Source: Octopus vulgaris
Lineage: Eukaryota
NCBI GenBank assembly: GCA_951406725.2
Contig: OX597815.1
Location: 124,496,001 to 124,560,000 of the forward strand
Length of the DNA stretch: 64,000 nucleotides
Reading direction: 5' to 3'
Shown here: positions 5,622 to 56,575 of the stretch, piece after piece
Layout of the letters: every line of letters begins with the position of its first letter
Position numbering within the stretch: the first letter of the stretch is position 1
Position numbers and translations under genes: made by a program
The notes under the pieces: model-generated
What the model was told of the DNA's origin: nothing
What the model saw: the letters and a program-made list of their open reading frames with translations, nothing else
Databases searched by the model: none

Positions 5622-5769
5622 AGGCGCAGGAGTGACAGTGTGGTAAGAAGCTTCCTTCCCATCCGCATGTTCCGGGTTCAATCCCACTGCGTGGCACCTT
5701 GGGTAAGTGTCTTCTGCTATAGCCTCGTGAGTGCATTTGGTAGAGGGAAACTGAAAGAAACCCGTCGTA

Positions 5770-5845
<76 letters not shown>

Positions 5846-6293: not shown

Positions 6294-6449
6294 GTTTTAT
6301 GTAAATATATATATATAAGTTCAGCAAAATTTAGATTCAAATGAATATGGTACTTAAGGTAGATGCACCAGAATTTTGAATGGTGTTATCCATATAAATC
6401 CATGGGGTGATTATAATCAAAATAAGCAACAAGAATAACTTTGGTAATT

Positions 6450-6533
6450 TGGTACGATCGTTTCGCACTACATCATTTTATTAAATGTTGCAAGCATTAC
6501 AACAATTTTAAAATACTGAGCACTCATCAGCCA
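6450..6533 (-). ncRNA. Type I hammerhead ribozyme (family 1, minus copy)
   Basis: Reverse complement of 6714-6797. Confidence 0.65.
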
Positions 6534-6713
6534 TTTATAGAGGTTTTCCATTAATACATAATTTTCATATCAAGTGATAAACCTTACATAAGAGGTAGAT
6601 ATATAGACAAAGATGTCTAAAATTTAAATCCACATCTTTGTCTATATATCTACCTTCTATGTAAGGTTATCACTTGATATGAAAATTATGTATTAATGGA
6701 AAACCTCTATAAA

Positions 6714-6797
6714 TGGCTGATGAGTGCTCAGTATTTTAAAATTGTTGTAATGCTTACAACATTTAATAAAATGATGTAGTGCGAAACGATCGTACCA
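6714..6797 (+). ncRNA. Type I hammerhead ribozyme with long stem II (family 1)
   Basis: TGG-CTGATGA-[59-nt hairpin GTGCT...AGTGC]-GAA-ACGATCGT-A-CCA; palindromic stem III, GUA site, 3-bp stem I. Confidence 0.65.
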
Positions 6798-6830
6798 AAT
6801 TACCAAAGTTATTCTTGTTGCTTATTTTGA

Positions 6831-6883
<53 letters not shown>

Positions 6884-11013: not shown

Positions 11014-11155
11014 TTATTTACATTTGACGGATATTTCTCCTCATCTTGTTTGCTGTTAACACAACATTTCGGCTGATATACTCTGCAGCCTTCATCAGGT
11101 GTCTTGGGGAAATTTCGAACCTGGTTTCTCATTCCTAAGGTATTTTTCAATGTTA
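11014..11155 (-). mobile_element. HH family 2 unit; hammerhead at 11058-11103 has mutated stem III
   Basis: Near-identical to 20095-20240 and the reverse complement of 22575-22715; a + strand 3' fragment lies at 11605-11670. Confidence 0.75.
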
Positions 11156-11162
11156 TTATTAT

Positions 11163-11228: not shown

Positions 11229-12978
11229 ATTATGGAGTGACTTTTAGGGCTTATATATCTTATATTTTCCTATCCTTCCTTAATACCGGTTCTCATATGC
11301 TACTCATATCTGCACTCGGTCTGCTTAGGAGGTTATTATGTCCTAGCATATGTGCTGCTTCTTTTATTTTTCGTTTTTTCCAATGGTGTTCTCTGTTTAT
11401 TATTTCACCTTCATCCTACAGGAAACTTAATGGAAATGTTGATCTTCTGTGTAGAAACTACCTACTTCAGAATGGACACTGATATATATCGACAGAGAGG
11501 GGTTAGCTATGAGTTCGCCATTGTCACTGATAATAGCCAGTATGTACAAGGAATACTTTGAGAATTTGGCTTTAGGATCAACACCACTAATACCAACAAT
11601 TTTGTGAGGACAAATATCCGTCAAATGTAAATAATATTAATAATGTACATAATTCCTCACCTCTCAAAATATTGTCTTGGGTCTCCTTGACATTTTGGGC
11701 GACTAAAGTCTTGTAAATGAGATTCGGTAGATGGAAAGTATAGATGCTCTCATTTGATGGTTTTTACTTGTAATTCAATGTTACAGCCTTATCACACTGG
11801 ATCGGTTACCCTGTTAATACTTGAGAATTATGTTAATGATCCATGTACTTGCGGAATGTTTCGCCATTTACAAGGTTATTCAATCGATGAAGTTTCCAAT
11901 GATTGAACAACGGAATCGTTTTCGTAATACCGAAGGATATCCATTTTACTTTTCTATTTATATATAAAAACTACTTGTATGTGTGTCATTTCTTGCCAAT
12001 ACAGAAAGAGTCGGTTTCTAAACCTAGATCCAACACTCCTTCATTGGAATTTCAATATCAACAACGGGGTATTTTTGTATGTATGTATGTATGTATGTAT
12101 GTATGTATGTATGTATGTGTGTATGTATGTATGTATACGTGCAGATTTTTATGTTTTATTTTGTGTATGTCTTCTCACGCATATGCTTGCATATCTTGAC
12201 ATACGCATATATACTTAAACTGTATGTATGTATGCATGCATGCGTGAGTATGTATGAACGTATGTCTACCTCTCTCTCTTTTCTCTCCTCCTCTTTCTCT
12301 TCCACTCTCTCTCTTTCTCTTCCTCTCTCTCTCTCTCATACTCTTCCTCTTTTTCTCCCTCACACACACAACCGTGCAGTAGCACATACCGGTTACAGAA
12401 ACGTAGATTCCTGTAAAAGATTCCGAATTCTGTAACAGGAAACAGATAATTTCCAACTGAATGTATTTTTGGGGGAAAACAAACAAGTAGGACAAATACT
12501 TTTATGAATGACTATAACAATTTTTAAACACATATGACACAAGATGTATGTATGAGAGAAAAATGTTTGGAAGACAAATTCAATATGGAATTATTATAGT
12601 AGACAGAGTGTGGTAGACAGAGTGTGTAGTTTTACAAAAGGTGTCGACTGTTGTGTGATGGGATAGGAAGATGGTGCAATGCAATGGGGCTATAAGACAG
12701 ATACTATCCCTAGCCTTGTAAATCATCACGATTAGCATCTGCGTGATTGCTAGAGAATTAATCCGAAGTTGTTTGTCTATCACGGTGTACCGTATCTTTG
12801 TACTGCTTAGTGTAGAAATTAAACTCATTTTGAACTTCTCATGTATTTTTGATGTCATATTCATGATTAAAGTTATTAACAAAAGCCTAGAAGATTCTTC
12901 TTGTCGGCCTTGACACATTTCCTGTGTCCTTATATATTTATGAAGGGGAGACAAACACCCCCAACAGCTAGGCCTGCA

Positions 12979-13024
12979 TCTAGATACATGCATGTTTCAG
13001 GGTCTTGCCCATCATCAGTCTAGA
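12979..13024 (-). ncRNA. Type I hammerhead ribozyme (family 3, minus copy)
   Basis: Exact reverse complement of 13336-13381. Confidence 0.75.
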
Positions 13025-13335
13025 GTAGCAAGGCCTGCTAGCTGAAGATATTTGTCTAGACTTCGTAAATATATATATATATATATTTTCAGTGAAGTTT
13101 ATTCACTGATCACCAAAATCAGAAATATTAAATTTCAGAAATTTAATATTTCTGATTTTGGTGAGTGAATAAACTTCACTGAAAATATATATATATATTT
13201 ACGAAATCAGAAATATTAAATTTCTGAAATTTAATATTTCTGATTTTGGTGATCAGTGAATAAACTTCACTGAAAATATATATATATATATTTACGAAGT
13301 CTAGACAAATATCTTCAGCTAGCAGGCCTTGCTAC

Positions 13336-13381
13336 TCTAGACTGATGATGGGCAAGACCCTGAAACATGCATGTATCTAGA
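13336..13381 (+). ncRNA. Type I hammerhead ribozyme (family 3)
   Basis: TCTAGA-CTGATGA-T-GGG-CAAGAC-CCT-GAA-ACATGCATGT-A-TCTAGA: 6-bp stem I, stem II, 10-nt palindromic stem III, GUA site. Confidence 0.75.
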
Positions 13382-15899
13382 TGCAGGCCTAGCTGTTGGG
13401 GGTGTTTGTCTCCCCTTCGTAAATATATAAAGACACAGGAAATGTGTCAAGGCCGATAGGAAGCGTCGATGCTTCCTAGGGCTAAATAGCGGTGGTGTAA
13501 TTCCCTTACGGGACTGTCACGTTAAGTTGACAGTATACAACCACTCTATCGCTCCACCACCGCATATATCTCTATGAGATATTTAGAAATTTAATATTTC
13601 TGATCCTAGTAGATTTTTTTCTATAAATGCCAATCACTAGACATATACTTTGCAGTCAATTAAAGTGGAGTGGGTGGGACCTTATATCCCCTTCTTGGCT
13701 TGCAGTTTACGTTTGTTCTAACGGCATCAGTTTTCCATAGAGAAAAAAACTTTCTCTGTGGAACTCGACCACATCATCTACAAGACATCTTCAAATCTTA
13801 CATTATTTTTCAGTGTCATATCTTGCCGAACTAATTGATAAAATCTAGTCAAAAATGTTTAAAATTACCTTTGCTGAGTGTTACACTCCATTCCTTGGCT
13901 CGGCAATATTATCCATAATACCTATAGTGGTCAATTTTTACAATAGTTTCGAACTTTATTTCCTGTGGCGTAAACTCAACACTAGACTTAAAATGTTTCA
14001 AAGATCGTCTGATGCGTCTTGCAAGAATAAATTCTGTCGGTAACATGAAACTAAATTTCTACAAGTGTACCATTTCAAAAGTCCCAAAGCTTTCAACAGC
14101 TGTGCTAGGCTTAATCTAACTGATTTGGTGTTCAAATAAAGGCCAAAATAATTACGATCCTTTTCCAAGACTGATTTAAAATCTGTTGGTTGCGTTTTTG
14201 AGTTGTTTCACGTTCTTAGTAACATCGCATTGAAGTTAGCTATTCCGCTTAAATTCATTGGCTGAATTAAATAAATTGTGTGTTCTTGTGAATGAATTCT
14301 ATTCTTATATTTTAAGAAAAATCATTTAAGTTTATTGGGTGGATTAGTGTATTGTCTAAACGTAGCACTGCATTGTTGATAATATTACATATCGCACTAA
14401 ACATTTGTCTGTACAGAAGGGTAAGATTAGCTGCAACAAACGTACTTAGAGAAAGAAATTAAGTGTTCTTAAAATTGTAGCTTGCTCAGGTGTTAAGCCG
14501 CTTTCAGCTCCCTGGAGTAATTAAAAATTGACAGCTTTACCGGTCGTTTTAATGTGCCTCTTAAAACTTCCAAATAATTCTTTAATACCCAAAGGGCTTT
14601 ATACTAGAATTTGCAACTCCCCTTTCTAGTTGTATCAACTTTTAGCTTTTACTTGAATGACCATCGTGTTTATCGGCTTCTTACATTCAATCGTAGATCC
14701 ATGCTCAGAAACATTTACGTATTAAGCATCATATCAGATTTATTAAAAAATATGATACACATGCAATTATCGTTGTAAATGTTTGAGTTCTTGACCTAAT
14801 ATTCTCTATTTTGTTGCGTATTGTTTTTGATACTTTTCTAATGTGGCTGGATTTTTCTACGCTGGAATCCATTGTAAAACATCAAGTTTAACGTCTTACG
14901 TGATACCTCTACGACCCCTGTTTTCACTGCTGCTTCCACTTCCACTTGATGGCATCTTTCTATAAGAGTTTGGGACTAAATTCAGTTGCGAGTGGAGACA
15001 GGCAAAAAGTAAAACCCCAAAAGTAAAAACACTAGGATCTAAGAGATGTTCTGAGTTGTAAAAAAACAATAACTTTATTGCTTGGTATGCAATAACGAAA
15101 AAGGAAGGATTGGAGGTGTGATATCAAAATGAATGAAATGGTAATATGTGGGTGGAAATTCTGTGCCCACAAAAAGGTGGAAGAACGGACAAAGAAGCAT
15201 TGGAAATAATACTGAAAGCATTAAAAAACAAGGTCATTTGAACTGGTGCATGTGCAAACAGGATGGAGGCTGAACAAGGAAAGAATATTAAGAGTAATGA
15301 AAAGAAATTCTTGCAGAAGAAAAATGATCTAAATAATTGAATTGGTTGGCTGCAAGCAAAAAGAATTTACAGAGATTGAATAAATAAATCTAATGAGAGG
15401 AGTGGCAGGGCGTATTAAAGTGTCAACCCAATTTTATTTTATAACTGAGTAAGTGTTTATACGTAAATATGTTTCGGGATTTTAGTTTTCAAGTTTCCCT
15501 AAGGGTGAAAAAAGAGGTCGTACTCAAAATTTTGTGTTTATAAATTAGAATTTTCGTAAGTGCAGGATTTCTTAACCGGAGGTTTTGTAAAGTGGGTTAC
15601 AGCCCTGCACGTGTAGTTATATAATACAGTCCACTATCACTCGCAAGTGAATATCTCTCCCTAGCATATACTATACTTTTATTTTTGCGGGTAGAATCAG
15701 GCACTCTCTCCGTCTCTTAACCCTTGCCGTAGCAAAATATCTTGGACATCATAGCTGGAGGTAGAGAGTGCTGCACCAGTACTCTGACTAGTACTCAGTT
15801 ACAGATAGATTAACTAGAACGACATGAAATGGAGTCTTGCTCAAGGACACAATACACTATCCGATCCAGGATTCGAACAAATGATGATACAATCATATA

Positions 15900-19060: not shown

Positions 19061-20094
19061 CAAATGTAGTCTTGGAAGGATGCATGATGAGCGTTATTTG
19101 TAATTCAATAGTACAACAGTGTAAGAGTTTGCTTTGAGGTATACTTAGATTGTGATTTCTGCAATGTTGTGCATAAATTGTCAAGTAAAGGAGAAGCATC
19201 TTTGCCTCCACTGGTTCAGTCGCAAAGTGTTATTTTGAGTAAAGTTATTTGGTTGCAGACCTCATTTGAGTATTTTTATTATCACTGGGTCAGAGATAGT
19301 CCCCAGATGGTAAACATTGATTTCAAGGCTTTTCCAGGTATGTGATTGGTCATTCAAAGAGATTTATAGATTGTAAATTTATTCTGTTCAGTTACTTATT
19401 GGCAAAGTGATCATTGGCAAACTCCAGAGGTTACACTTTCATTTCCCCTTAGCCCTCACGTCACACAGTTGTTAATGTTTATTTGAGTTGGGTCACGCCC
19501 TTCCAATTGTTATAGATCCGTAATGCATCTTACGGCTGTGCCGGTTACCTGTATGGTGAGAAATCCTACATTGGGGAGTGGTAACGGCTAGGGTAGGGAA
19601 AGCTGACTGCTTATTGTGATCATTCGTCTTTTGGTTTCCTGTAGCTTTCATTCATATATTTCTGATTTCAAAGGAGTTTGAAGAATAGATCCAAGTTAAA
19701 AAAGATTTCCAACAATTCAACTTCTCTGGTTGACTTTAAGACCTCTCTAATAGGGGCCTTAACTCCCATATTTTAGAGCTCCACGTGCTCTATTATATAT
19801 ATATAATGAGGTAAAAATAGAAAGGGAGAGATATACGATGCAAATCCAATATCAAAATGTCCTCTTTGCTTGTTTAGAAGCTCTTTTACTATCATTCAAA
19901 CCAAAGATTATTTCTGTATGGTATTATGGACGTCCCAGTTTCCAGAGAATTGCAGCTGTCCTCCCAGAAATATATTTACACATCCAATATAGATTTTCAG
20001 GAGCTCTTCATATATCCTGGATATCCGATTATATTCTCCATATCGCACATCTGGTCCATTTTAAAATAGTGCAGCTATTTACGTTATTTTAATA

Positions 20095-20240
20095 TTTACA
20101 TTACTTACATTTGACGGATATTTGTCCTCATATTGTTTGTTGTTAACACAACGTTTCGGCTGATATACCCTCCAGTCTTCATCAGGTATCTTGGGGAAAT
20201 TTCGAACCTGGGTTCTCATTCCTAAGGTATTTTTCGATGT
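20095..20240 (-). mobile_element. HH family 2 unit (hammerhead 20145-20190)
   Basis: Inverted partner of 22575-22747. Confidence 0.75.
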
Positions 20241-20265
20241 TGACAACAACATCGAAAAATACTTA

Positions 20266-20455: not shown

Positions 20456-20456
<1 letters not shown>

Positions 20457-22435
20457 TGGCCTGGATTGACTACAAAAAGGCGTTTGATAGCATCCCCCAC
20501 ACATGGATCCTCGAAACACTAGCCATTAACAAAGTAGCACCAACAATCATAAAATTCATAGAGTACTCTATGAATAAATGGCAAACAGTCCTACACCTCC
20601 AAACAAAAGAGGGACTCATGAAAACCAAAGACATCCCCATTAGAAGAGGAATATTCCAGGGAGACACGCTCTCTCCACTCCTTTTCTGCATGGCACTGTC
20701 ACCTCTATCTGATATGCTAAATAGAACTGGATGCGGATATAAATGTTACGGCAAAACGATCAGCCACCTTTTATATATGGATGACCTAAAACTATACGCT
20801 GCAAATGACAAACAGCTGGAAACACTATTAAAGACAGTTCATGGATTTACCAAAGAAATAGATATGAAATTTGGATTAGAAAAATGCGCCAAAGTAACCA
20901 TGAAAAGAGGAAAACTAGTTAAGAGTAACAACATCATACTAGATAAAACCAATGAAATAAAAGAATTAGACCAAAGCCAAACTTACAAATACTTAGGAAT
21001 CCATGAACTAGATAAGACACAACACACACAAATGAAAGAGAAAATAAAAAAAGGAATATTATAGACGAGTTAGATCAATACTAAACACAGAGCTCAATGC
21101 TAAAAACAAGATAATAGGTATCAACACTTTAGCTGTCCCAGTTATAAGTTACAGCTACAATATCCTTAACTGGACACGAAATGAACTGACCAAAATAGAT
21201 AGGAAAACAAGAAAAATAATGACAGGATCTAGGATGCATCACCCAAAATCTGACATAGAAAGACTATATATACAACGTATAAAAGGTGGTAGAGGCCTTA
21301 TACAGCTGGAAAACTACTATAAAATAACCACCATAGGACTGCAAAAATATCTACTTCAGAAGGAAGGAAAACTGATCCAGATAGCGGCAAAACACGAGCA
21401 AAACAAAAAACTGTTCTCAGTATTTAAGGAAGCTGACAAATACAAACAAGAAATCATACCACCTAATAAACATGAAGAAGAAGAAGAAGATGAAGAAACA
21501 ACAAAAGCTATAAAACAAATGAAATCCAAACTAAAAATAGAACAGCAACGAACCATGATAAAACGATGGCAAGAAAAGCCCATTCATGGTAAATACTGGA
21601 CTAAACTAAACGCAAAAGAAATAGACAAAGAAAAATCCCAGCAATGGTTGAGAAGCTCAGGACTCAAAGCAGAAACAGAGGGATTTTTAATTGCAGCACA
21701 AGACCAAAGCCTCCCCACCAGAAATTGCCCAAAACATTTAATGAAAAGAAATATTACAAGTAACTGCAGAATATGTGGAGATGGACAAGAAACAATAAAT
21801 CATATTATCTCTAGCTGCCCAGTCCTGGCTAAGAAAGAATATATTCACAGACATGACAGAGTTGGAACCTACATACATTGGAAGCTATGCCAACATTATG
21901 GAATAACAACAGAAAAAAGATGGTATAGGCACACACCAGAAAAGGTCACAGAAAACGAGAAAGCAACCATACTCTGGGATATGCCGATACACACAGATAG
22001 AGAAATTAAGGCCAACAGACCAGATATAGTTGTCAGAGACCATGAAGAAAAAAAAATGCTTTCTAATTGATGTATCAATACCGGCTGATGACAACGTGTC
22101 TCTAAAAGAAATGGAGAAACTCTCAAAATACAAAGACCTGGAAATAGAGGTAACTAGAATGTGGAATCTGAAAACAGAAACAATTCCTATCATAGTAGGT
22201 GCATTAGGCATGATAAAAAAATATTCAGACAAATACTTAACAAAAACACCCGGACTTACAAACACATATAACATACAGAAAATTGCACTACTAGGCACTG
22301 CACACATCCTATGCAGAACACTTTCCATACAATAACCATCAGAGCATCACAACAACTCACAGCACATACCCAAGGCACACAGAGCTGTGCTCGGTAGTGA
22401 AGTGAAAGCACGCTATAAAAATAAAACTACTGAAT
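20456..22435 (+). mobile_element. 5'-truncated Dong/R4-clade non-LTR retrotransposon (RT, CCHC finger, restriction-like endonuclease)
   Basis: WIDYKKAFDSI, RGIFQGDTLSPLLF, HLLYMDDLKL, YKYLG; CRIC..ETINHIISSC..RHD; RPDIV..IDVSIP..EKLSKY; stop at 22335, about 100-nt 3' UTR, (TAA)n on both sides; two +1 shifts in A runs. Confidence 0.92.
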
Positions 22436-22448
22436 AATAATAATAATG

Positions 22449-22563
<115 letters not shown>

Positions 22564-22574
22564 TAATAACAACA

Positions 22575-22747
22575 ACGAAAAATACTTTAGGAATGAGAAA
22601 TCAGGTTCGAACTTTCCCCAAGACACCTGATGAAGGCTGGAGGGTATATCAGCTGAAACGTTGTGTTAACAACAAACAAGATGAAGACTACTATCAGTCA
22701 AATGTAAATAATGTACATAATTCCTCATCTCTTAAATATAGAACTGT
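22575..22747 (+). mobile_element. HH family 2 unit
   Basis: Follows (TAA)n; matches the copies at 11014 and 20095 in the opposite orientation. Confidence 0.75.
22622..22667 (+). ncRNA. Minimal type I hammerhead ribozyme (family 2)
   Basis: GACAC-CTGATGA-A-GGCTG-loop-CAGCT-GAAACGTT-GTGTT; stem III reduced to palindrome AACGTT, GUU site. Confidence 0.6.
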
Positions 22748-24102: not shown

Positions 24103-24684
24103 AGCATACTATACATTCTCTTCTCTTTTTACTCTTTCTTTCTTCCTCAGCTTCATTCGCTCTATTTCACACTCCCTGATATTGCCTATCCCTCTGTCGA
24201 ACTGTCTGCTTCTTCGTCTGTCTCCCTATTCTGGGAATCTGTCTGCCTCTCAATGTGTTTATGCATATCTGCAAGGAAATAGATCGTAATTTGATATCAG
24301 ATAATGTATGATTTGCACAGCAGTGTGCAGATCTGAAGACATTTTTCAGCCTGCAACTAAGGGCCGTTTGCAGACTTTATATTGCACTCTAGTGTAAAAA
24401 CAATATGCAAGATAGACTATTTGTATTCCGTTTAAGGTTTCTTCAAACTCAAAACCAGAAAGACAATTCGAGACAGAATGTCTGAGAGTGAGAATGAAAG
24501 AGGAAAAGAGAGAGCAAAAGAGAAAGAAACTGAAGAAAAGACAGCCGAGAAATACGTGGAAGCTCGAAAGTTTGAACGAGGGAGAGTGAGGAGATGTGTG
24601 AATGTGAAAGTGTAATCAAGGAATGAAAGAATGAATAAATGAATGAAAGAAACAAAATATGTTTGTGCGCGCGCGTATGTGTGC

Positions 24685-24734
<50 letters not shown>

Positions 24735-24997
24735 AGGTACCTGTACTAATGAATGAAGTGTGAGAAAAGAAGTTTTAAAATGGTTGTTGTATTTATATGC
24801 AGGTATGAGTTTATATATATATATATATATAACGTAAAGTATAGTAGCCATCAATATGGCTAACCACTAGGGGTGGGTGCTACTGTAGCTTTTAGCCCCA
24901 GGAGATCATCGTCTCCAGCTGGCTTTAGGCACACTATCTGTGCCCTCATGGTATTTGCAAAGGTAGGTCATCCCTCTCTCGTAAGCCTAAGTGATTC

Positions 24998-25040
24998 GCA
25001 CGGACTGCAGTTTCGAGGTGTTTGCCTCTTGTCAACGCAC
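24998..25040 (-). ncRNA. Type I hammerhead, U3:A8 core variant (family 4)
   Basis: Minus: GTGCG-TTGACAA-GAGG-CAAACA-CCTC-GAA-ACTGCAGT-C-CGTGC. Confidence 0.75.
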
Positions 25041-25405
25041 GGTAATCACCGGTTTACGATGAAAAGGAAGACCTGTTTGCAAATACTTATGGGTTTTTCT
25101 AGTAACTACTGTCACTGATTTCGAAATACTGTCTGCAAGCAATAATAAATCTCTGAACGAGATGTACACAGTAACCGCTTGACAACGTAAAGTATACTAG
25201 CCATCAATATGGCTAACCACTAAGGGTGGGTGTTACTGTAGCTTTTAGCCCCAGGAGATCATTGTCTGTTACATCTGTTACATCTCGTTCAGAGATTTAT
25301 TATTGCTTGCAGACAGTTTTTTCGAAATCAGTGACAGTAGTTACTAGAAAAACCCATAAGTATTTGCAAACAGGTCTTCCTTTTCATCGTAAACAGGTGA
25401 TTACC

Positions 25406-25448
25406 GTGCGTTGACAAGAGGCAAACACCTCGAAACTGCAGTCCATGC
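25406..25448 (+). ncRNA. Type I hammerhead, U3:A8 core variant (family 4, plus copy)
   Basis: Same motif; one stem I mismatch (CATGC). Confidence 0.7.
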
Positions 25449-25704
25449 GTATCACTTAGGCTTACGAAAGAGGGATGACCGCCCTTTGCAAATGCCATAA
25501 GGGCACATATAGTGTGCCTAAAGCCACCTGGAGACGATGATCTCCTGGAGCTATAAGCGACAGTAACACCCACCCTTAGTGGTTAGCCATATTGATGGCT
25601 AGTACACTTTACGTTGTCAAGCGGTTATTGTTTACATCTCGTTCAGAGATTTATTATTTATATATATATATATATAAGTGACCAAAGTGTACGTACGCAG
25701 TTAT

Positions 25705-26046
25705 ATGTATATAAAAAAGAATGCAAAAAATGGGACAAGAGCGCAACAGGCGACAACAAAACATCCAGACAGTTAGATGATACAAAAAGGGACAAGAAAA
25801 ACAAGGACGGGTCATTCGGAGTTTTCTTCTCTCAGTCGAGTTCAAGATCATCTTTGCAGTTTCGGCTGGTTATACTCGAAACTGCTCCAATCTGGCCACC
25901 CCCAAGGAAAAGCTAAGAGCACTAGATTCCTTGGAAGAAAGCAGCAAATGTATACGAAAACAAGGACGTATAAAAACCGGAGAAAGAGTATACAAATACA
26001 AATGCAAACAAAAGACATTAAGAACAGGTGCCTTTCTTGATTCGAC
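25705..26046. repeat. Unclassified interspersed repeat; second copy at 56159-56575 in the opposite orientation
   Basis: Shared CTCCAATCTGGCCA, AAGGAAAA.CTAAGAGCA, ATGTATACGAAA.CAAGGACG blocks. Confidence 0.7.
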
Positions 26047-26103
26047 TACCATCCGTGCACCATCTATATTCCTTCCCATGCCAGTCATCTCTTCTGTCTC
26101 TGA

Positions 26104-26268
26104 TACTTATTCTATCGGTCTCTTTTGCCTGAGGACGTAACCACACCAATATCTGCTGTCCAGCGATGGTAGGGAGACAAACTCAGACACAAAAGCACAC
26201 GCGTAGGTATAGACACACACACACACACAGAGGTACACACAGAGGTACACACACACACACACACACAC

Positions 26269-26327: not shown

Positions 26328-26366
<39 letters not shown>

Positions 26367-26512
26367 CGGGCTTCTTTCAGTTTCCGTTTACTAAATCCAC
26401 TCATAAAGTTTTGGTCGGCCGGAGGCTATAGCAGAAGACGCTTGCCGAAGGTGCCACGTAGTGGGACTGAACCTGGAATCATGTGGTTGGGAAGCAAGCT
26501 TCTTGCCACACA
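26104..26512 (-). mobile_element. SINE family A copy
   Basis: Same blocks as 181-640. Confidence 0.75.
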
Positions 26513-27204
26513 TATTTATGTATGTATGTATGTATGTATATTTGATATGTATGTGTCTATGTATGCATATTGATAGTAACTTCAAAGCTTCAGCTTGCTT
26601 TGTTTTCATCGGAAAAGGCCTAAACGTCAAGACCATTCTCAACACTATTCTTGTTCAGGAATAATAAATATGCATGTAGATACGTACATACGTATACACA
26701 ACAAGCTTCTGCACCTTTTCTCTCAACCGAATTCATTCAAAGGTCATTTGTCAGCCCGAGGCTGTAGTAGAAGCCTTTTGTCCTAGATGCTATGTAATTG
26801 GATTGTGTCTGAGTGTACATACTCTCAAGATATATATATATGAACATACCTGCATACATACATACATACATACATACATACGCAGCAAGCTTCTGAACAT
26901 CGCCCTCCACCAAATTGTCCTACACGAAAAAAAAAAATAAATAAAAACTGTCACTGACCAATTTATAAGATAGCATCAACATTGCCCTGTGTTAAGTTTT
27001 ATCAATAATGCATTGTTGATAAAACTTAACATAGAGACAAGATATTTCCGAAAGGTGACTGTGTTTATGACATGGATTAGTGAATAATCGAAGAAAACAA
27101 TCAATCTATTGAAATGTATCTGTTGATCACAACGTAGCTTTCATCTGTTGCAAATCTTGTTGTCATTGTATTACTATTATTATTATTAGTAGTAGTAGTT
27201 GCAG

Positions 27205-27355: not shown

Positions 27356-28379
27356 TCCTTAATCAATCATGTGGTGTCTTTTTAAATTCCCCCTCCTGCC
27401 TCTCATAATTCTTTGTTAGTACACATGCACGCACGCTCGCACACACACATGTACACACATATATATCTTTAACAGCAGGGCATATATTATTCTCACGTCA
27501 TATGACCCTGACGAGATGTTCATCCGAGCATCTGGTGAGTGTCAGGTGAAAGATGTGAACCGGATATAAACCTAACTCTTCAGCTAATCAGCTATGAGCA
27601 GAAAAATAAACTGTTTAGTTAAACCAACACACATAAACACCATCACACCCACACATGGATGGACACACGTAAATGATTAGCTGGATAGAATTGTTTCGGA
27701 GCAAATCAAGAAATATATCCTTTTATTGAATTAATATTTATAGGCATGCCTATATGATTAAGAAGTCTACTTCGCAGCCAGGGATTTTGTGTTCAATCCC
27801 ATGATGTAGCCTCTTGAGCAAAAGTCTTCTACTACAGCCTCGGGCTGACAAATGCCCTTTGAATGAATTTGGGTGAGAGAAAAGGTGCAGAATGTATACG
27901 TATGTACGTACCTACATACATATCTATTATTCATGAACATGAATAGTGTTGAGAATGATCTCGACGTTTAGGCCTTCATAGATTTCAAAAACAGCCCAAT
28001 GAAAGCAAGGCAGGCTGAAGCTTTGGAGTCGCTTTCAATACTGTTCTTGTAGAAAAATATATATGTTATCCACAAATTCCATTCACTATTTGTTCAATGT
28101 AAAATTGTTTGGAGCTTAGTGTGTTTGTCTGTGTGTGCATGTGCCTGTGTGAGTGTGTGTGTTTGTGTGTGTGTGTGTGTGTGTCTGTTTGTGTATGTGT
28201 GTGTGTGTGTGTGTGTGTCTGTTTGTGTATGTGTGTGTGTGTGTGTGTGTGTCTGTTTGTGTATGTGTGTGTGTGTGTTACTGTTTGTTTCTAATTGAAG
28301 TTAGAAAACAAATTTAACATTTAACTAAGGGCTTACTAAATACTTTATAAATAAAATGCATATTCATTAACTCACAACT

Positions 28380-29590
28380 CACAACTTGCTCTTGTTTTTT
28401 TTCTGTGGAAAGTTTACAATGCCATGATACTCAATTGTATCCAGCCGGAGATCGCAAAAATCCTTGTGCGAGTAACCTGAAAGCAATCCTCCTATTTGCT
28501 GACTTTTCTAGGGCCTTTGGCTCGATACACAGAAGAAAAACTGGAAGATATACTTCATGCATATAGTACCCTAAAGGAAACTATTAATTCCATCATGATG
28601 TTGTATAGAAATACCCAGTCTATACTCATCATCCAGATGGTGATACAGTTTTTTGACATAGCGGCTGGTATCCCCCAGGGTGGCATCTTGGCACCCTACC
28701 TGTTCATTATATGTAAAGATTATGTTCTACGTACCTATGTAGATGAAACGAAAGATAAAGGATTCACTCTTCAACCAACCAAAAGCAGACGTTTTCCAGC
28801 TGTGACTAGTACAGATGCTGACTACCCTGATGACTTGGCGCTACTATCAGTAAAAATTTGTGATACAAAGTCTCCCCTGAACAGCATTGAAACTGCTGCT
28901 AAAGGTGTTGGTCTCTACATCAACTCGGACGTGACAGAATATATATATGATGCACATGCCAGAGCGGCAACCTTAACTCCGCATCTGGAAAATCCTTGAA
29001 AAATTTTGGCGAATTCACATACTGCGGAAGTAAAAGCGCAAAGGAAGATCTGTCTACAAGTGACGTTCATGTCTGAATCGGCAAAGCCTGGGCAGCTTTA
29101 CATAAATTATCGACAGTCTGGAAATCTAAGCTGCCATTAAATTTGAAACGTAATTTCTTTCAGGTAGTTTTGCTGTCAGTTCTGCTATAAGGTTGTACAA
29201 CATGAACTCGAAACAATGTGTCTTGAAAAGAAAATTAACGGAACTTATACAAGAATGCTTCGAGCTGCTCTAGGCATCTGGAGGTAACACCCTACAAAAG
29301 AACATCTGTATGGTAATTTACCGGTAATATCACACTTCATAAGAGAAAAAGACAAAATTTGATGGACATTGCTGAGGAGCTATGGGGGAGATCATCAGTG
29401 ACGTTCTTCTTTAGGAGCCGAAATATAGTTATACAAATAATGGTCGACGTCATCGAACCTAAATAAAACAATTGTGCGAGGATTCCAAGTGCACCCAAGA
29501 AGACATACCACGTGCAATAGCAGACCGAATAGACTGGAAAGAACGAGTCACGACAATCCGTGCAATAAGCATGAGCCAAACTGATGACAG
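28380..29590 (+). pseudogene. Decayed RTE-group (RTEX-like) LINE reverse transcriptase and 3' end
   Basis: GIPQGGILAPYLFII..DYVLR..SRRFPA..DADYPDDLALLS..GLYIN; downstream FTYCGS, IGKAWAA, NGTYTRMLR. Confidence 0.8.
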
Positions 29591-32329: not shown

Positions 32330-32637
32330 TATTCAGTAGTTTTATTTTTATTTTTATAGCGTGCTTTCACTTCACTACCGAGCGCAGCTCTGTGTGCCTT
32401 GGGTATGTGCTGTGATTTGTTGTGATGCTCTGATGGTTATTGTATGGAAAGTGTTCTGCGTAGGATGTGTGCAGTGCCTAGTAGTGCAATTTTCTGTATG
32501 TTATATGTGTTTGTAAGTCCTGGTGTTTTTGTTATGTATTTGTCTGAATATTTTTTTATCATGCCTAATGCACCTACTATGATAGGAATTGTTTCTGTTT
32601 TCAGATTCCACATTCTAGTTACCTCTATTTCCAGGTC

Positions 32638-32638
<1 letters not shown>
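32330..32638 (-). mobile_element. Short 5'-truncated copy of the Dong/R4 element
   Basis: Near-identical to 22134-22435; (TAT)n on both sides. Confidence 0.9.
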
Positions 32639-32735
<97 letters not shown>

Positions 32736-37644: not shown

Positions 37645-37781
37645 ATATACATACACATATATATGTGAATATATGATATATACATATATGTATGTATATA
37701 TATATGTATATATATATATTAGTAGAAATATTAAAATTACTAAGTCTCTCTAAAAGAGAACAACGGCAGCGTTCCCGGAAA

Positions 37782-38014
37782 ATAATAGTTATCGCCATAC
37801 TAATATGGCATTCTAATAAAAATAAGAATAAAGCTGTCCGCTTATTAGCTCCATGAGGCCATCGCCTTAAGTTAGCTATTTGATACACAAACTGTATCCA
37901 TATAACCTTCGAACAAATAGCTAACTTAAGGCGATGGCCTCATGGAGCTAATAAGCGGACAGCTTTATTCTTATTTTTATAAGAATGCCATATTAGTATG
38001 GCGATAACTATTAT
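37782..38014. repeat. Near-perfect inverted repeat, 101-bp arms, 31-nt spacer
   Basis: 37782-37882 versus 37914-38014; (TA)n tracts nearby on both sides. Confidence 0.9.
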
Positions 38015-48409: not shown

Positions 48410-48575
48410 GGTGGCCAAGTGTTAAGAAATTTGCTTCCCAAGCACATAATTGCGGTTGGGTTCAGTCGCACTTCGAGACATCTTGGGCAAGAGTTTTCTA
48501 CTATTGACTCGGATCGACCAAAGCCTTGTCAGTGGATCTCGTAGACAGAAACTGAAAAAGCCTGTCGTGTATATA
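48410..48575 (+). mobile_element. SINE family A head
   Basis: Similar to 5622-5770. Confidence 0.65.
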
Positions 48576-48598
48576 TATCTGTATAACATATATATACA

Positions 48599-49444: not shown

Positions 49445-50724
49445 TTAGGCTGTCAAGAAAGTTCTTGCGGTTTTTAACCTTTAAATTCAGGTGCACATAT
49501 CTCGGTTCACGCAAAACTTTATTAATCGAAATAAACACCATCAGAATCAACACACTTTTACCAACGCGAAACAAAGTTTATTTATACCAATAGCGTAAAA
49601 ATCTTGCGTTCTGGTGGCGATAGAGTCGTTGAAGGCGTGTTTTGCATTGTCTTGGTTTTTGATGCATTTCTCATGCAGGAAGTTGGCGAGATGCTTTAAA
49701 AAGTGGTAGTTGGTAGGCGAGAGGTCTGGTGAGTATGTCGGATGAGGCAGAGTTTCGTAGCCCAATTCGTTCAACTTCTGCAGGGTCAGTTGTGTGACGT
49801 GCGGCCGAGCGTTGTTGTGGAGAAGAATTGGTCCTTTTCTATTGACCAATGCTGGCTGTTGTTGCCGGAGTTTGTTATACATTTCATCCATTTGCTGACG
49901 GTACTTCTCCGCCGTAATGGTTTCGCCTGGATCCAAAAAGCTGTGATGGATGAGACCGTCCGCAGACCACCAAACAGTCACCATGATCTTCTTTTGGTGC
50001 AACTTTGGCATCGGGAAGTGCTGTGGAGCCTCGTCGGCGTCCAACTACTGAACTGAGCGTCGCCGGTTGTTGTAAAGAATCCACTTTTCCTTGCAAGTGA
50101 CAATCCGGTCGAGAAACGGGTCGTTCTTGTTGCGTATAAGAAGGGAAGACGACACTTGAAATCGGCGTTTTTGGGGTTGTTGTTCAATTCGTGCGTCACC
50201 CATTTCTCAAGTATTTTTGTTTTTCCACTCTCTTTCAAGTGGTTGGAAGTTGTCGTATACGTTACGTCTAATCCAGAAGTAAGCTTTCGAACAGTTGTGC
50301 ATGGATTGGTTTCGGCTAAGGCTCTTAGTTGATCGCTGTCAACATCCGATGGCCGACCACTACGCTTATCATCTTCAAGACTCTCGTCACCGCTACGAAA
50401 TTTCTTGAACCACCATTGTGCTGTACGTTCATCAGTAGTTCCTGGGACAAACGCATCGTTGATATCACGAGGTGTTTCAGCATGTTTTTGGCCTAGCTTG
50501 AACTGGAATAAGAAAATTGTGCGAATTTGCTTTTTGTCCATGTTGTATTCAACGTTCCGGATAAAATGGCCTAATTATTCAAAAAGAAAAAAGAGTAACA
50601 CGATTAGATAGAGCGAAAGATGGGCTATAAAATAATATATACATTTAAAGTAATTTAACGAAAATCAATTTGAAAATACATCATTTAAAACCAAAATTCC
50701 GCAAGAACTTTCTTGACAACCTAA
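49445..50724 (-). mobile_element. Full-length mariner (cecropia/Hsmar1-like), 1280 bp
   Basis: TIRs TTAGGCTGTCAAGAAAGTTCTTGCGG / CCGCAAGAACTTTCTTGACAACCTAA, TA duplication on both sides. Confidence 0.95.
49522..50541 (-). pseudogene. Mariner transposase pseudogene
   Basis: MDKKQIRTIFLFQFKLG..QWWFKKFRSGDESLED..WVTHEL..YSPDLSPT; frameshifts near 50170 and 49575 and internal stops. Confidence 0.92.
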
Positions 50725-56245: not shown

Positions 56246-56575
56246 GTTTTTTGTATTATTTTTGTATTTATATTCGTGTAACATCGTCCGTTTTTCCGTC
56301 CTTGTTTCGTATACATTCGATGCTTTTTTCCAAGAAATCTAATGCTCTTAGCTTAGTTTTTCCTTGAGGCTGGCCAGATTGGAGCACTCTTAAGATAATC
56401 AGCCGAAATTGCGAGGATGATCCGGTTCTTGACTGAAGATAAAAGGCTTCGAATGATCCGTCCGTGTTTTTTTTGTATCGTCTATCTGGATGTTTTGTTC
56501 TCCCTTTTTATATCACTTAGTTATCCGGATGTTTTGCGTTCTTGTCCTATTTTGTATTTTATTTTATTTTATATA
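56159..56575. repeat. Second copy of the 25705-26046 repeat, interrupted by (TAT)n
   Basis: Reverse-complement similarity. Confidence 0.7.

What the first reader, a model, noticed from the sequence alone, without database searches (positions are those of the whole stretch)
24831..25658. Circularly permuted 354-nt monomer present as inverted 1.2-mer and 1.1-mer
The left block repeats its start after 353 nt and the right inverted block after 354 nt, with different endpoints and several substitutions between them. This suggests two template molecules or passes. The monomer holds many short hairpins (TAGCCATCAATATGGCTA, GGAGATCATCGTCTCC, GGCACACTATCTGTGCC) and one hammerhead. This is the clearest retrozyme-like signature in the window: a structured small RNA copied from a circle or multimer (inference).
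Basis: partly seen in the sequence, partly recalled or inferred. Interest (0 to 1): 0.8.

Follow-up and report, generated by a model that had tools for sequence, protein, structure and literature searches.

The report
Penelope-pasted hammerhead retrozyme copy
This is one aged copy of an abundant, non-coding 354-base repeat that carries a predicted self-cutting RNA motif (a known class, 'retrozymes'); its back-to-back layout and two recurring end points show that it was likely pasted in by a Penelope-type jumping-gene enzyme starting at two set sites, not copied from a random point of an RNA circle, and neither cutting nor a circle has been shown.

Summary
In detail: a 437-nt (1.24 units) and a 381-nt (1.08 units) arm of a 353/354-nt unit lie head-to-head between two (TA)n tracts, 94% alike, each with one full-size type I hammerhead. 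The core is the variant U3-A8, which is the family's normal state (no alternative at 15% or more in four runs) and aligns with C3-G8 in a homologous family at 13.2-13.6 kb. The unit folds far better than shuffles (z -4 to -7) and shares a covarying structure with two other elements in the window. The 'random permutation' reading is not supported: both outer ends recur in other copies and differ by a 43-nt extension, which matches the Penelope 'tail' made by two internal reverse-transcription start sites. Best reading: non-autonomous non-LTR retrozyme mobilised by a Penelope-like element, primed from both target strands on uncut RNA. Whether that RNA was a linear multimer or a circle is open; weak hints favour a linear transcript. 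Self-cleavage, circles and the partner enzyme are untested. The class is known, U3-A8 is known from Schistosoma Penelope elements, and this scan noted like families many times elsewhere in this genome. New member of a known kind; interest 0.33.

The parts
24812..24830 (.). (TA)n tract, left flank (likely target; no target-site duplication can be told)
   Evidence: sequence
24831..25267 (-). Left arm, 437 nt = 353-nt unit + 84 nt; RNA sense is the minus strand; its outer (3') end at 24831 is the 'short' end, 172 nt downstream of the predicted cut
   Evidence: the same end recurs in loose-end consensus of four runs at the 25184-equivalent position
24991..25049 (-). Type I hammerhead, left copy: stem I 5 bp + bulge + 6 bp, core UUGACAA (U3-A8, C7) at 25035-25029, stem II 4 bp with 6-nt loop, GAAA 25014-25011, stem III 2 bp with palindromic tetraloop, predicted cut after C at 25003
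   Evidence: no core variant at 15% or more in four runs; no Rfam hammerhead model hit
25141..25183 (-). Internal copy of the 43-nt tail in the left arm, followed in RNA sense by the head-to-tail unit junction at 25141/25140
   Evidence: depth step and loose ends near 25137-25145
25218..25229 (-). Motif resembling the human snRNA-gene PSE consensus (9 of 12 specified positions), about 63 nt upstream of the position where the right arm begins; also a predicted RNA hairpin; a lead only
   Evidence: consensus from PMC5493778 figure legend; post-hoc match
25268..25285 (.). Head-to-head junction: 9-nt tandem duplication (25268-25276 / 25277-25285) behind a 2-nt microhomology, not a symmetric fold-back hairpin
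25278..25658 (+). Right arm, 381 nt = 27 nt + 354-nt unit; begins inside the tail and ends at the 'long' end, 215 nt downstream of the predicted cut
   Evidence: one X2 contig has an inverted joint whose sense arm starts at the same base
25398..25455 (+). Type I hammerhead, right copy; core 25411-25417, predicted cut after 25443; a change at 25445 breaks the second pair of stem I
25616..25658 (+). 43-nt one-sided 'tail' between the short and the long end
   Evidence: compare PMC11167929, PMC8557442, PMC3846280
25659..25676 (.). (TA)n tract, right flank
   Evidence: sequence

Best explanation
The locus is one aged copy of an abundant non-coding repeat whose 354-nt unit carries a predicted type I hammerhead (a non-LTR retrozyme), and it was likely inserted by the reverse transcriptase/endonuclease of a Penelope-like element acting in trans. 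Inferred steps: a tandem source locus is transcribed into RNA longer than one unit; the enzyme cuts both strands of a (TA)n tract; each 3' end primes cDNA synthesis inside the RNA, one at the short site and one at the long site 43 nt further downstream; both cDNAs run through an uncut hammerhead, stop after 437 and 381 nt, and are joined head-to-head by microhomology with a 9-nt slip. The 5-6% difference between the arms is mostly decay since insertion. The hammerhead would cut multimers into 354-nt monomers that could circularise, but that step is not needed to explain this insertion. Shown: anatomy, repeat abundance, recurrence of both ends, conserved core and covarying structure. Not shown: transcription, cutting, circles, the partner enzyme, and whether the template was linear or circular (a linear primary transcript is slightly favoured for the right arm).
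For: Head-to-head arms in (TA)n with a 43-nt extension at one end. Short end recurs: loose-end consensus in 4 of 4 runs (40, 29, 5 and 4 contigs) follows the element to the 25184 position and then departs, clearly in 3 runs and partly in X3; two long contigs (X19 record 8, X20 record 23) stop matching at 25182. Long end recurs: 3 contigs in X2 and 4 in X3 leave the element at 25137, and summed depth steps about 4.5-fold between 25125-25134 and 25145-25154 in X19 and X20. Published Penelope behaviour: both strands cut and extended, AT-rich targets, two internal start sites whose interval is the 30-40 bp tail, uncut RNA the main substrate (PMC11167929, parts 1-2 read); inverted 5'-truncated copy, one-sided tail, (TA)n bias (PMC8557442 passages); head-to-head most frequent, pLTR enough for trans-mobilisation (PMC3846280 passages). 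Two other palindromes in the window sit in (TA)n with one-sided extensions of about 94 and 62 nt. Neither 5' end lies at a cut site (88 and 188 nt short of the next one). Same source for both arms: they share the minority letter at 24936, 25020, 25038, 25108, 25110, 25180 and lack the common insertion at 25203; arm-specific letters at 24964, 24996, 25127, 25167, 25263 are held by about 1% or less of depth in X19. Selection on RNA structure: z -4.2 to -7.0; 15 of 52 predicted pairs with double-sided changes across 4 sequences from 3 families; U3-A8 aligns with C3-G8 of the 13-kb family.
Against: No autonomous Penelope element was found in the window and none could be tied to this unit (no genome held). 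End-recurrence rests on assembled contigs, of which only 24 of 259 loose-end rows were shown; median loose length at the short end was 11-25 letters; flanks there are A-rich rather than clean (TA)n; the long end in runs is 4 nt further than in the window. The two long contigs stopping at 25182 may be one orthologous locus. The tail (43 nt) is slightly longer than the 30-40 bp described. The isolated hammerhead does not take the active fold as its lowest-energy state (-10.9 versus -17.8 kcal/mol), and 8 of 9 Xenopus retrozyme dimers tested showed no cleavage (bioRxiv 2026.07.22.740005). A circle entered at the same two fixed sites would give the same outer ends.
Confidence: 0.72

Rival explanations
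1. One reading: a 354-nt circular RNA is reverse-transcribed by rolling circle from arbitrary entry points, in two passes or from two different circles, and the products are integrated in inverted orientation.
For: Both arms exceed one unit and run through the cut site; the unit folds well as a circle (z -4.9 to -5.4) with a 48-pair stem closing on the hammerhead; mussel, coral and axolotl retrozymes of like size form circles (PMC7229834 parts 2-3).
Against: Outer ends recur at two sites 43 nt apart and depth over the unit is very uneven (about 4,000 to 890,000 summed in X19), not even; the right arm's 5' start recurs in an independent contig, which a circle does not predict; linear folding is as good as circular; the two units inside the left arm differ by 4 of 84, no less than expected from ageing (p=0.47), so they neither prove nor exclude one circle.
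Confidence: 0.13
2. Fold-back self-priming: one cDNA (or an antisense template) folds on itself and is extended, giving the inverted arm, as proposed for rotifer Penelope elements.
For: Proposed in PMC3846280 (passages); the homologous 13-kb element has a perfect hairpin junction with 1 nt between arms; both arms here come from one subfamily.
Against: The junction here is asymmetric by about 100 nt with only 2 nt of microhomology, and the right arm ends 43 nt beyond anything the left arm's outer end contains, so it cannot be a plain copy of the left arm unless that was later trimmed exactly at the recurring short site.
Confidence: 0.1
3. Not one retrotransposition event: two separate insertions into one TA tract, a later DNA rearrangement, or an assembly fold-back artefact.
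For: The family is very abundant and TA tracts are hot spots; a further repeat abuts the right TA tract; no listed contig spans the whole locus.
Against: No TA remnant between the arms; arms differ by 5.6% so are not a read artefact; arms share rare alleles; the same short/long head-to-head layout recurs in other elements of the window and inverted joints occur in other contigs.
Confidence: 0.05

Closest known systems
Metazoan non-LTR retrozymes (Cervera and de la Pena 2020, PMC7229834; Li, Clavereau and Pollet 2026, bioRxiv 10.64898/2026.07.22.740005)
   Same: Non-coding head-to-tail unit of 170-400 nt (mussel 350-390, axolotl 330/350), under 50% GC, one full-size type I hammerhead with a 2-bp helix III and tetraloop, strongly self-paired, high copy number; Penelope-like elements proposed as the mobiliser.
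   Different: Core is U3-A8/C7; this copy has only one hammerhead per arm, so it fails the 'two consecutive hammerheads' criterion for an active element; inverted layout, tail and (TA)n target are not mentioned in the parts read (term 'inverted' 0 times in PMC7229834); circles and cleavage untested here.
Penelope-like elements with endonuclease (Penelope/Poseidon, Neptune, Naiad, Hydra; PMC8557442, PMC3846280, PMC11167929)
   Same: Partial tandem plus inverted 5'-truncated copy, head-to-head; optional one-sided tail; AT-rich or (TA)n target; hammerhead upstream of the start sites; insertion from uncut RNA.
   Different: No RT/GIY-YIG reading frame (longest ATG frame 30 aa sense, 56 aa antisense in two units); the repeated unit is the whole element, not the end of a 3-4 kb element; Naiads, the clade noted for (TA)n, lack canonical hammerheads.
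Schistosoma mansoni Cercyon minimal hammerheads with U3-A8 core (PMC4209133, passages)
   Same: Same core covariation, in a Penelope-like context; pairs of hammerheads on opposite strands 100-700 bp apart were noted there too.
   Different: Those are minimal hammerheads; this one has full stems I-III inside a 354-nt structured unit.
Newt satellite 2 (internal snRNA-type promoter; seen only as cited in PMC2220036, and PMC7229834)
   Same: About 330-nt hammerhead tandem unit; a PSE-like motif may be present here.
   Different: Promoter here is a post-hoc motif match, untested; the original paper was not read.

Membership tests
Non-LTR retrozyme | Head-to-tail repeat unit of about 150-450 nt | tested here: met
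   353/354-nt unit, 1.24 and 1.08 copies
Non-LTR retrozyme | One type I hammerhead per unit with intact core | tested here: met
   Stems I-III and core present; U3-A8 covariant, fixed in laid contigs. Rfam models do not detect it.
Non-LTR retrozyme | Non-coding, no LTR/PBS/PPT, GC under 50% | tested here: met
   Longest ATG frame 30/56 aa, GC 45%; no LTR layout. PBS/PPT were not searched for separately.
Non-LTR retrozyme | Monomer predicted to be highly self-paired | tested here: met
   63-66% paired, z -4.2 to -7.0; 15 of 52 pairs with compensatory change across families
Non-LTR retrozyme | At least two consecutive hammerhead-bearing units (active source copy) | tested here: not met
   One hammerhead per arm at this locus; this is a dead-end copy; longer arrays elsewhere could not be searched
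Non-LTR retrozyme | Self-cleavage and accumulation as linear and circular monomer RNA | not testable with these tools
   Only assembled contigs available; no holder on record as RNA
Penelope-like insertion | Partial tandem plus adjacent inverted 5'-truncated copy, head-to-head | tested here: met
Penelope-like insertion | Two fixed 3' ends separated by a 30-40 bp tail, present at one end only | tested here: met
   43 nt; both ends recur in contigs of 2-4 runs, on a partial table
Penelope-like insertion | AT-rich or microsatellite target | tested here: met
   (TA)n on both sides
Autonomous Penelope-like element | RT plus GIY-YIG endonuclease reading frame | tested here: not met
   No such frame in the element; the six other window frames scanned are LINE-type RT, mariner or unassigned
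Non-autonomous derivative of a specific Penelope family | Sequence homology to the terminal repeat of an autonomous element in the same genome | not testable with these tools
   No genome held
Viroid-like or satellite RNA replicon | Ribozymes in both polarities, RNA-to-RNA replication | tested here: not met
   Scan of both strands found a hammerhead on one polarity of the unit only; replication itself not testable

The most novel reading that the evidence does not exclude
These ~355-360-nt families are self-sufficient parasitic RNA cassettes: each unit carries its own snRNA-type promoter about 60 nt upstream of a start site inside the tail, a working U3-A8 hammerhead, and a multi-helix 3' domain, conserved by compensatory change across three families in this window, that a Penelope enzyme reads to place its two start sites. 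The long arm would be a run-off copy to the very 5' end of the primary transcript, so each insertion would record promoter, template and both priming events, giving a minimal cis signal for Penelope-type insertion.
Probability: 0.27. Interest if true: 0.62.

Novelty: new member of a known kind. Interest (0 to 1): 0.33.

Why it matters
The class is known and the link between animal retrozymes and Penelope-like elements has been argued from co-occurrence and terminal-repeat homology. This family adds the insertion footprint (two fixed ends, tail, head-to-head inversion) on a purely non-coding unit, which is more direct evidence on the mobilising enzyme and makes 'circle versus linear multimer template' testable by mapping ends of many copies. 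A full-size hammerhead with a fixed U3-A8 core is missed by Rfam, so standard counts of ribozymes in such genomes are too low. Two searches found no paper describing cephalopod retrozymes, and the recent Octopus vulgaris repeat annotation has no occurrence of 'hammerhead', 'ribozyme' or 'retrozyme' in its main text; subscription papers, Repbase/Dfam entries and supplements were not seen.

Tried and rejected
Rfam: 0 hits at gathering score in 64 kb; at E up to 10 on 24800-26200, 8 hits, none a hammerhead model; the best (MIR2606, MIR447) reflect the long inverted repeat and lie far below gathering scores. Own-genome search: no genome held. RNA evidence: no RNA holder listed among 24 runs, 20 of which hold part of the stretch; runs X1, X2, X3 are only guessed to be RNA and are contigs, so their coverage, including a 406-nt X2 contig across the cut site, is not used for or against expression, cleavage or circles. 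No pile-up of ends was listed (table 6 empty in both calls). Collection scans: tail motif in metagenome contigs 0 matches; gapped core motif in viral contigs 2 matches, neither folds as a hammerhead; 19-nt motif in prokaryote genomes 5 matches, homology limited to 17-24 nt, taken as chance. Earlier findings by sequence 0, by words 0, near this place 0. A second, opposite-strand hammerhead near 25117-25135 (CTGA..GAAA spacing) was considered by eye and dropped: it lacks the 8/9 core positions and did not pass the scan. Three-way comparison of the 84-nt repeat (private changes 3, 1, 4; chi-square p=0.42) cannot tell one template from two. The idea that the right arm starts at a transcription start got no exact support from the 13-kb family, whose long arm starts about 20 nt further downstream at a hairpin junction. 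A cap-derived extra G at the junction was considered and left unsupported. Atlas search of the neighbouring LINE frame gave no usable host taxon; 'octopus' rests on earlier notes and on my recognition of the microsatellite-rich sequence, not on a test here. Literature search for C3U/G8A wording found 2 papers, not on this double variant; twin priming with Penelope gave 3 listings, not read.

Full report
Observation. An 84-nt direct repeat with spacing 353 (95% identical) bounds the left arm 24831-25267, a 27-nt direct repeat with spacing 354 (identical) bounds the right arm 25278-25658, and the arms are reverse complements at 94%. They differ by 19 substitutions (8 transitions, 1 at a CpG) and 1 indel in 338 columns. 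(TA)n tracts flank both ends and a 9-nt tandem duplication sits at the centre. No other close copy lies in the window. The 5.6% difference excludes a read fold-back artefact.

The ribozyme. A scan of both strands of the 64 kb for hammerhead cores with paired stems gave 3 hits: 22627 (+), 38330 (+) and 25035 (-). The last is a full-size type I hammerhead: stem I of 5 + 6 pairs, core UUGACAA, 4-pair stem II, GAAA, 2-pair stem III with a palindromic tetraloop, predicted cut after 25003. The right copy (cut after 25443) failed the scan because one change breaks the second pair of stem I. So the ribozyme strand is minus on the left and plus on the right: the arms are head-to-head, 3' ends outward. 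The core has U3-A8 in place of C3-G8. This is the family's state and not decay: of 36 variant rows at 15% or more in four runs, none falls on 25029-25035, 25011-25014 or 25003-25005, while neighbours 25006, 25020, 25036 and 25038-25040 do vary. The majority letter at 25038 (64-83% of depth) turns a G-U of stem I into A-U. A caveat: a change at 24996 seen was not listed, so rows near the left edge can be missed, and only contigs 85% alike were laid. U3-A8 is reported for about 1,300 minimal hammerheads of Schistosoma Cercyon elements (PMC4209133, passages). Rfam does not detect the motif. Alone, the motif's active fold is not its lowest-energy state (-10.9 versus -17.8 kcal/mol), which fits the dimer-dependent behaviour described for short palindromic helix III in that paper.

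The unit. It is 45% GC, has no reading frame above 56 codons, and folds better than 60 dinucleotide shuffles on the ribozyme strand, linear (z -7.0, -4.2) or circular (z -5.4, -4.9); the other strand scores -2.6 to -4.2. A 48-pair imperfect stem closes on the hammerhead. Two other elements in the window are homologous. The palindrome at 37720-38014 aligns with the 3' half at 109 of 171 columns, score 225 against a maximum of 163 in 1,000 shuffles, and its region gave the top three of 675 control windows. The element at about 12897-13604 has a ~360-nt unit, collinear helices and a canonical C3-G8 core in the columns where this family has U3-A8; it folds at z -10.7. In an alignment of 4 sequences (both arms here plus those two), 15 of 52 predicted pairs show a change on both sides with the pair kept. 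That is few and partly related sequences, the consensus fold did not recover the last 125 columns, and short pieces of the 3' domain alone folded only at z -1.2 to -2.7; the shared 3' scaffold is therefore a prediction read from single folds.

Abundance. 20 of 24 listed runs hold part of the stretch, at most 0.29 of its words; none is on record as RNA. On 24975-25267 the four runs laid gave 2,319, 1,125, 53 and 117 contigs; on 24600-25900, which includes a neighbouring repeat, 7,152, 4,087, 49 and 154. This shows a large, diverged family in at least the two organisms of the large runs; summed depth is not a copy number.

The ends are not arbitrary. In RNA sense the left arm ends 172 nt after the cut and the right arm 215 nt after it; the 43-nt difference is present at one outer end only. 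In one search (24 of 259 loose-end rows shown) the row 'before 25204' appears in all four runs (40, 29, 5, 4 contigs); its consensus follows the element to the base matching the left arm's outer end and then turns A-rich, clearly in X19, X20 and X2 and partly in X3. Two contigs of about 590 nt stop matching at 25182. Seven contigs in two runs of different studies leave the element at 25137, 4 nt beyond the right arm's end, and summed depth rises about 4.5-fold from 25125-25134 to 25145-25154 in both large runs. This is what Frangieh et al. found for an anole Penelope protein: it cuts and extends both strands of AT-rich DNA, starts reverse transcription at two internal sites of the RNA, the interval being the optional 30-40 bp genomic tail, and uses uncut RNA as its main substrate (PMC11167929, first two of four parts read). 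Partial tandems, an inverted 5'-truncated copy, a one-sided tail and (TA)n bias are described in PMC8557442 (passages); head-to-head layout and trans-mobilisation by the terminal repeat alone in PMC3846280 (passages). Two more palindromes in the window lie in (TA)n with one-sided extensions of about 94 and 62 nt.

One template or two. The three copies of the 84-nt stretch have 3, 1 and 4 private changes (p=0.42 against equal branches); within-arm 4 of 111 against between-arm 19 of 337 gives p=0.47. Both arms carry the minority letter at six listed places (24936, 25020, 25038, 25108, 25110, 25180; the last held by about 2% of depth in X19) and lack an insertion at 25203 present in about 70% of depth in the two large runs; arm-specific letters at 24964, 24996, 25127, 25167 and 25263 are nearly absent elsewhere (139 variant rows were not shown). 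The arms thus come from one subfamily and have aged by about 2.8% each. With the calibration quoted for Octopus (0.09 = 25 million years, PMC13282606 passage) that is roughly 8 million years, if the host is an octopus as earlier notes state; I did not establish the host.

Circle or linear multimer. Both arms cross an uncut hammerhead and neither 5' end is at a cut site (88 and 188 nt short), so the template was uncut and longer than a unit. A circle entered at the two fixed sites cannot be excluded. A hint for a linear transcript: an X2 contig has an inverted joint whose other arm is 12% diverged and stops elsewhere (25077) but whose sense arm starts at exactly 25278, and a second X2 contig starts matching at the equivalent place; 58 contigs in X19, X20 and X2 (43, 14, 1), and less clearly 2 in X3, show a joint into the tail about 7 nt further on, which may be one amplified chimera. 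About 63 nt upstream lies a motif matching 9 of 12 specified positions of the human PSE consensus (consensus in PMC5493778); newt satellite 2 is cited as having such a promoter (PMC2220036). Against this, the match is post hoc, the motif is also a predicted hairpin, and the 13-kb element's long arm starts about 20 nt further on.

Comparison and novelty. The element works like, and by the testable features is, a metazoan non-LTR retrozyme (PMC7229834, parts 2-3 of 6 and passages read; bioRxiv 10.64898/2026.07.22.740005, parts 1-3 of 5 read, supplements not seen), except that this locus has one hammerhead per arm and is a dead-end copy. Those papers already propose Penelope-like elements as origin and mobiliser. 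What this adds is the footprint on a non-coding unit and a full-size U3-A8 hammerhead. The scan has noted like families repeatedly in this genome, including a 359-nt U3-A8 unit and 355/356-nt units with the same reading; these are unchecked notes and are not counted as support. Verdict: real, new member of a known kind, interest 0.33; the bolder promoter-plus-recognition-domain reading has probability about 0.27.

Noticed in passing
window 12897-13604: Homologous ~360-nt retrozyme family with canonical C3-G8 hammerhead (core at 13342), inverted arms, hairpin junction and an internal duplication at 13088-13204; unit folds at z -10.7.
   Followed up: partly
window 37720-38014: Head-to-head palindrome in (TA)n with a ~62-nt one-sided extension; distant homologue (109 of 171 columns) of the 3' half of the unit, truncated before the hammerhead.
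   Followed up: partly
window 6318-6835: 423-nt, 95% palindrome in (TA)n with a ~94-nt one-sided extension; by eye a hammerhead-like core with a long stem II in each arm (about 6717 on +); not homologous by nhmmer.
   Followed up: partly
window 11014-11162, 20093-20242, 22563-22719: Short repeat family next to (AAT)n tracts carrying a minimal hammerhead-like motif (scan hit at 22627), 89-92% identical copies.
   Followed up: no
window 38330: Further hammerhead-like motif with a palindromic helix III, about 130 nt before a microsatellite cluster.
   Followed up: no
window 20456-22414: 5'-truncated, frameshifted LINE (Pfam RVT_1 E 3e-21, zf-RVT) between (TAA)n tracts; R4/Dong-like by recalled motifs; its 3' 288 nt recur at 32358-32645 at 97.6%.
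   Followed up: partly
window 25677-26140: Another very abundant repeat abuts the right (TA)n tract directly; 75% alike to 56252-56502; contigs show a recurrent 36-37-nt duplication at 25752-25788; not identified.
   Followed up: no
window 28481-28999; 49547-50574: LINE-type RT fragment (RVT_1 E 8e-08) and a broken mariner transposase (Transposase_1, HTH_48).
   Followed up: partly
window 26568-26805 / 27794-28040: Inverted pair of an ~250-nt repeat at 80% identity, member of a SINE-like family also at 474-632, 5632-5774, 26353-26512, 48419-48578.
   Followed up: no
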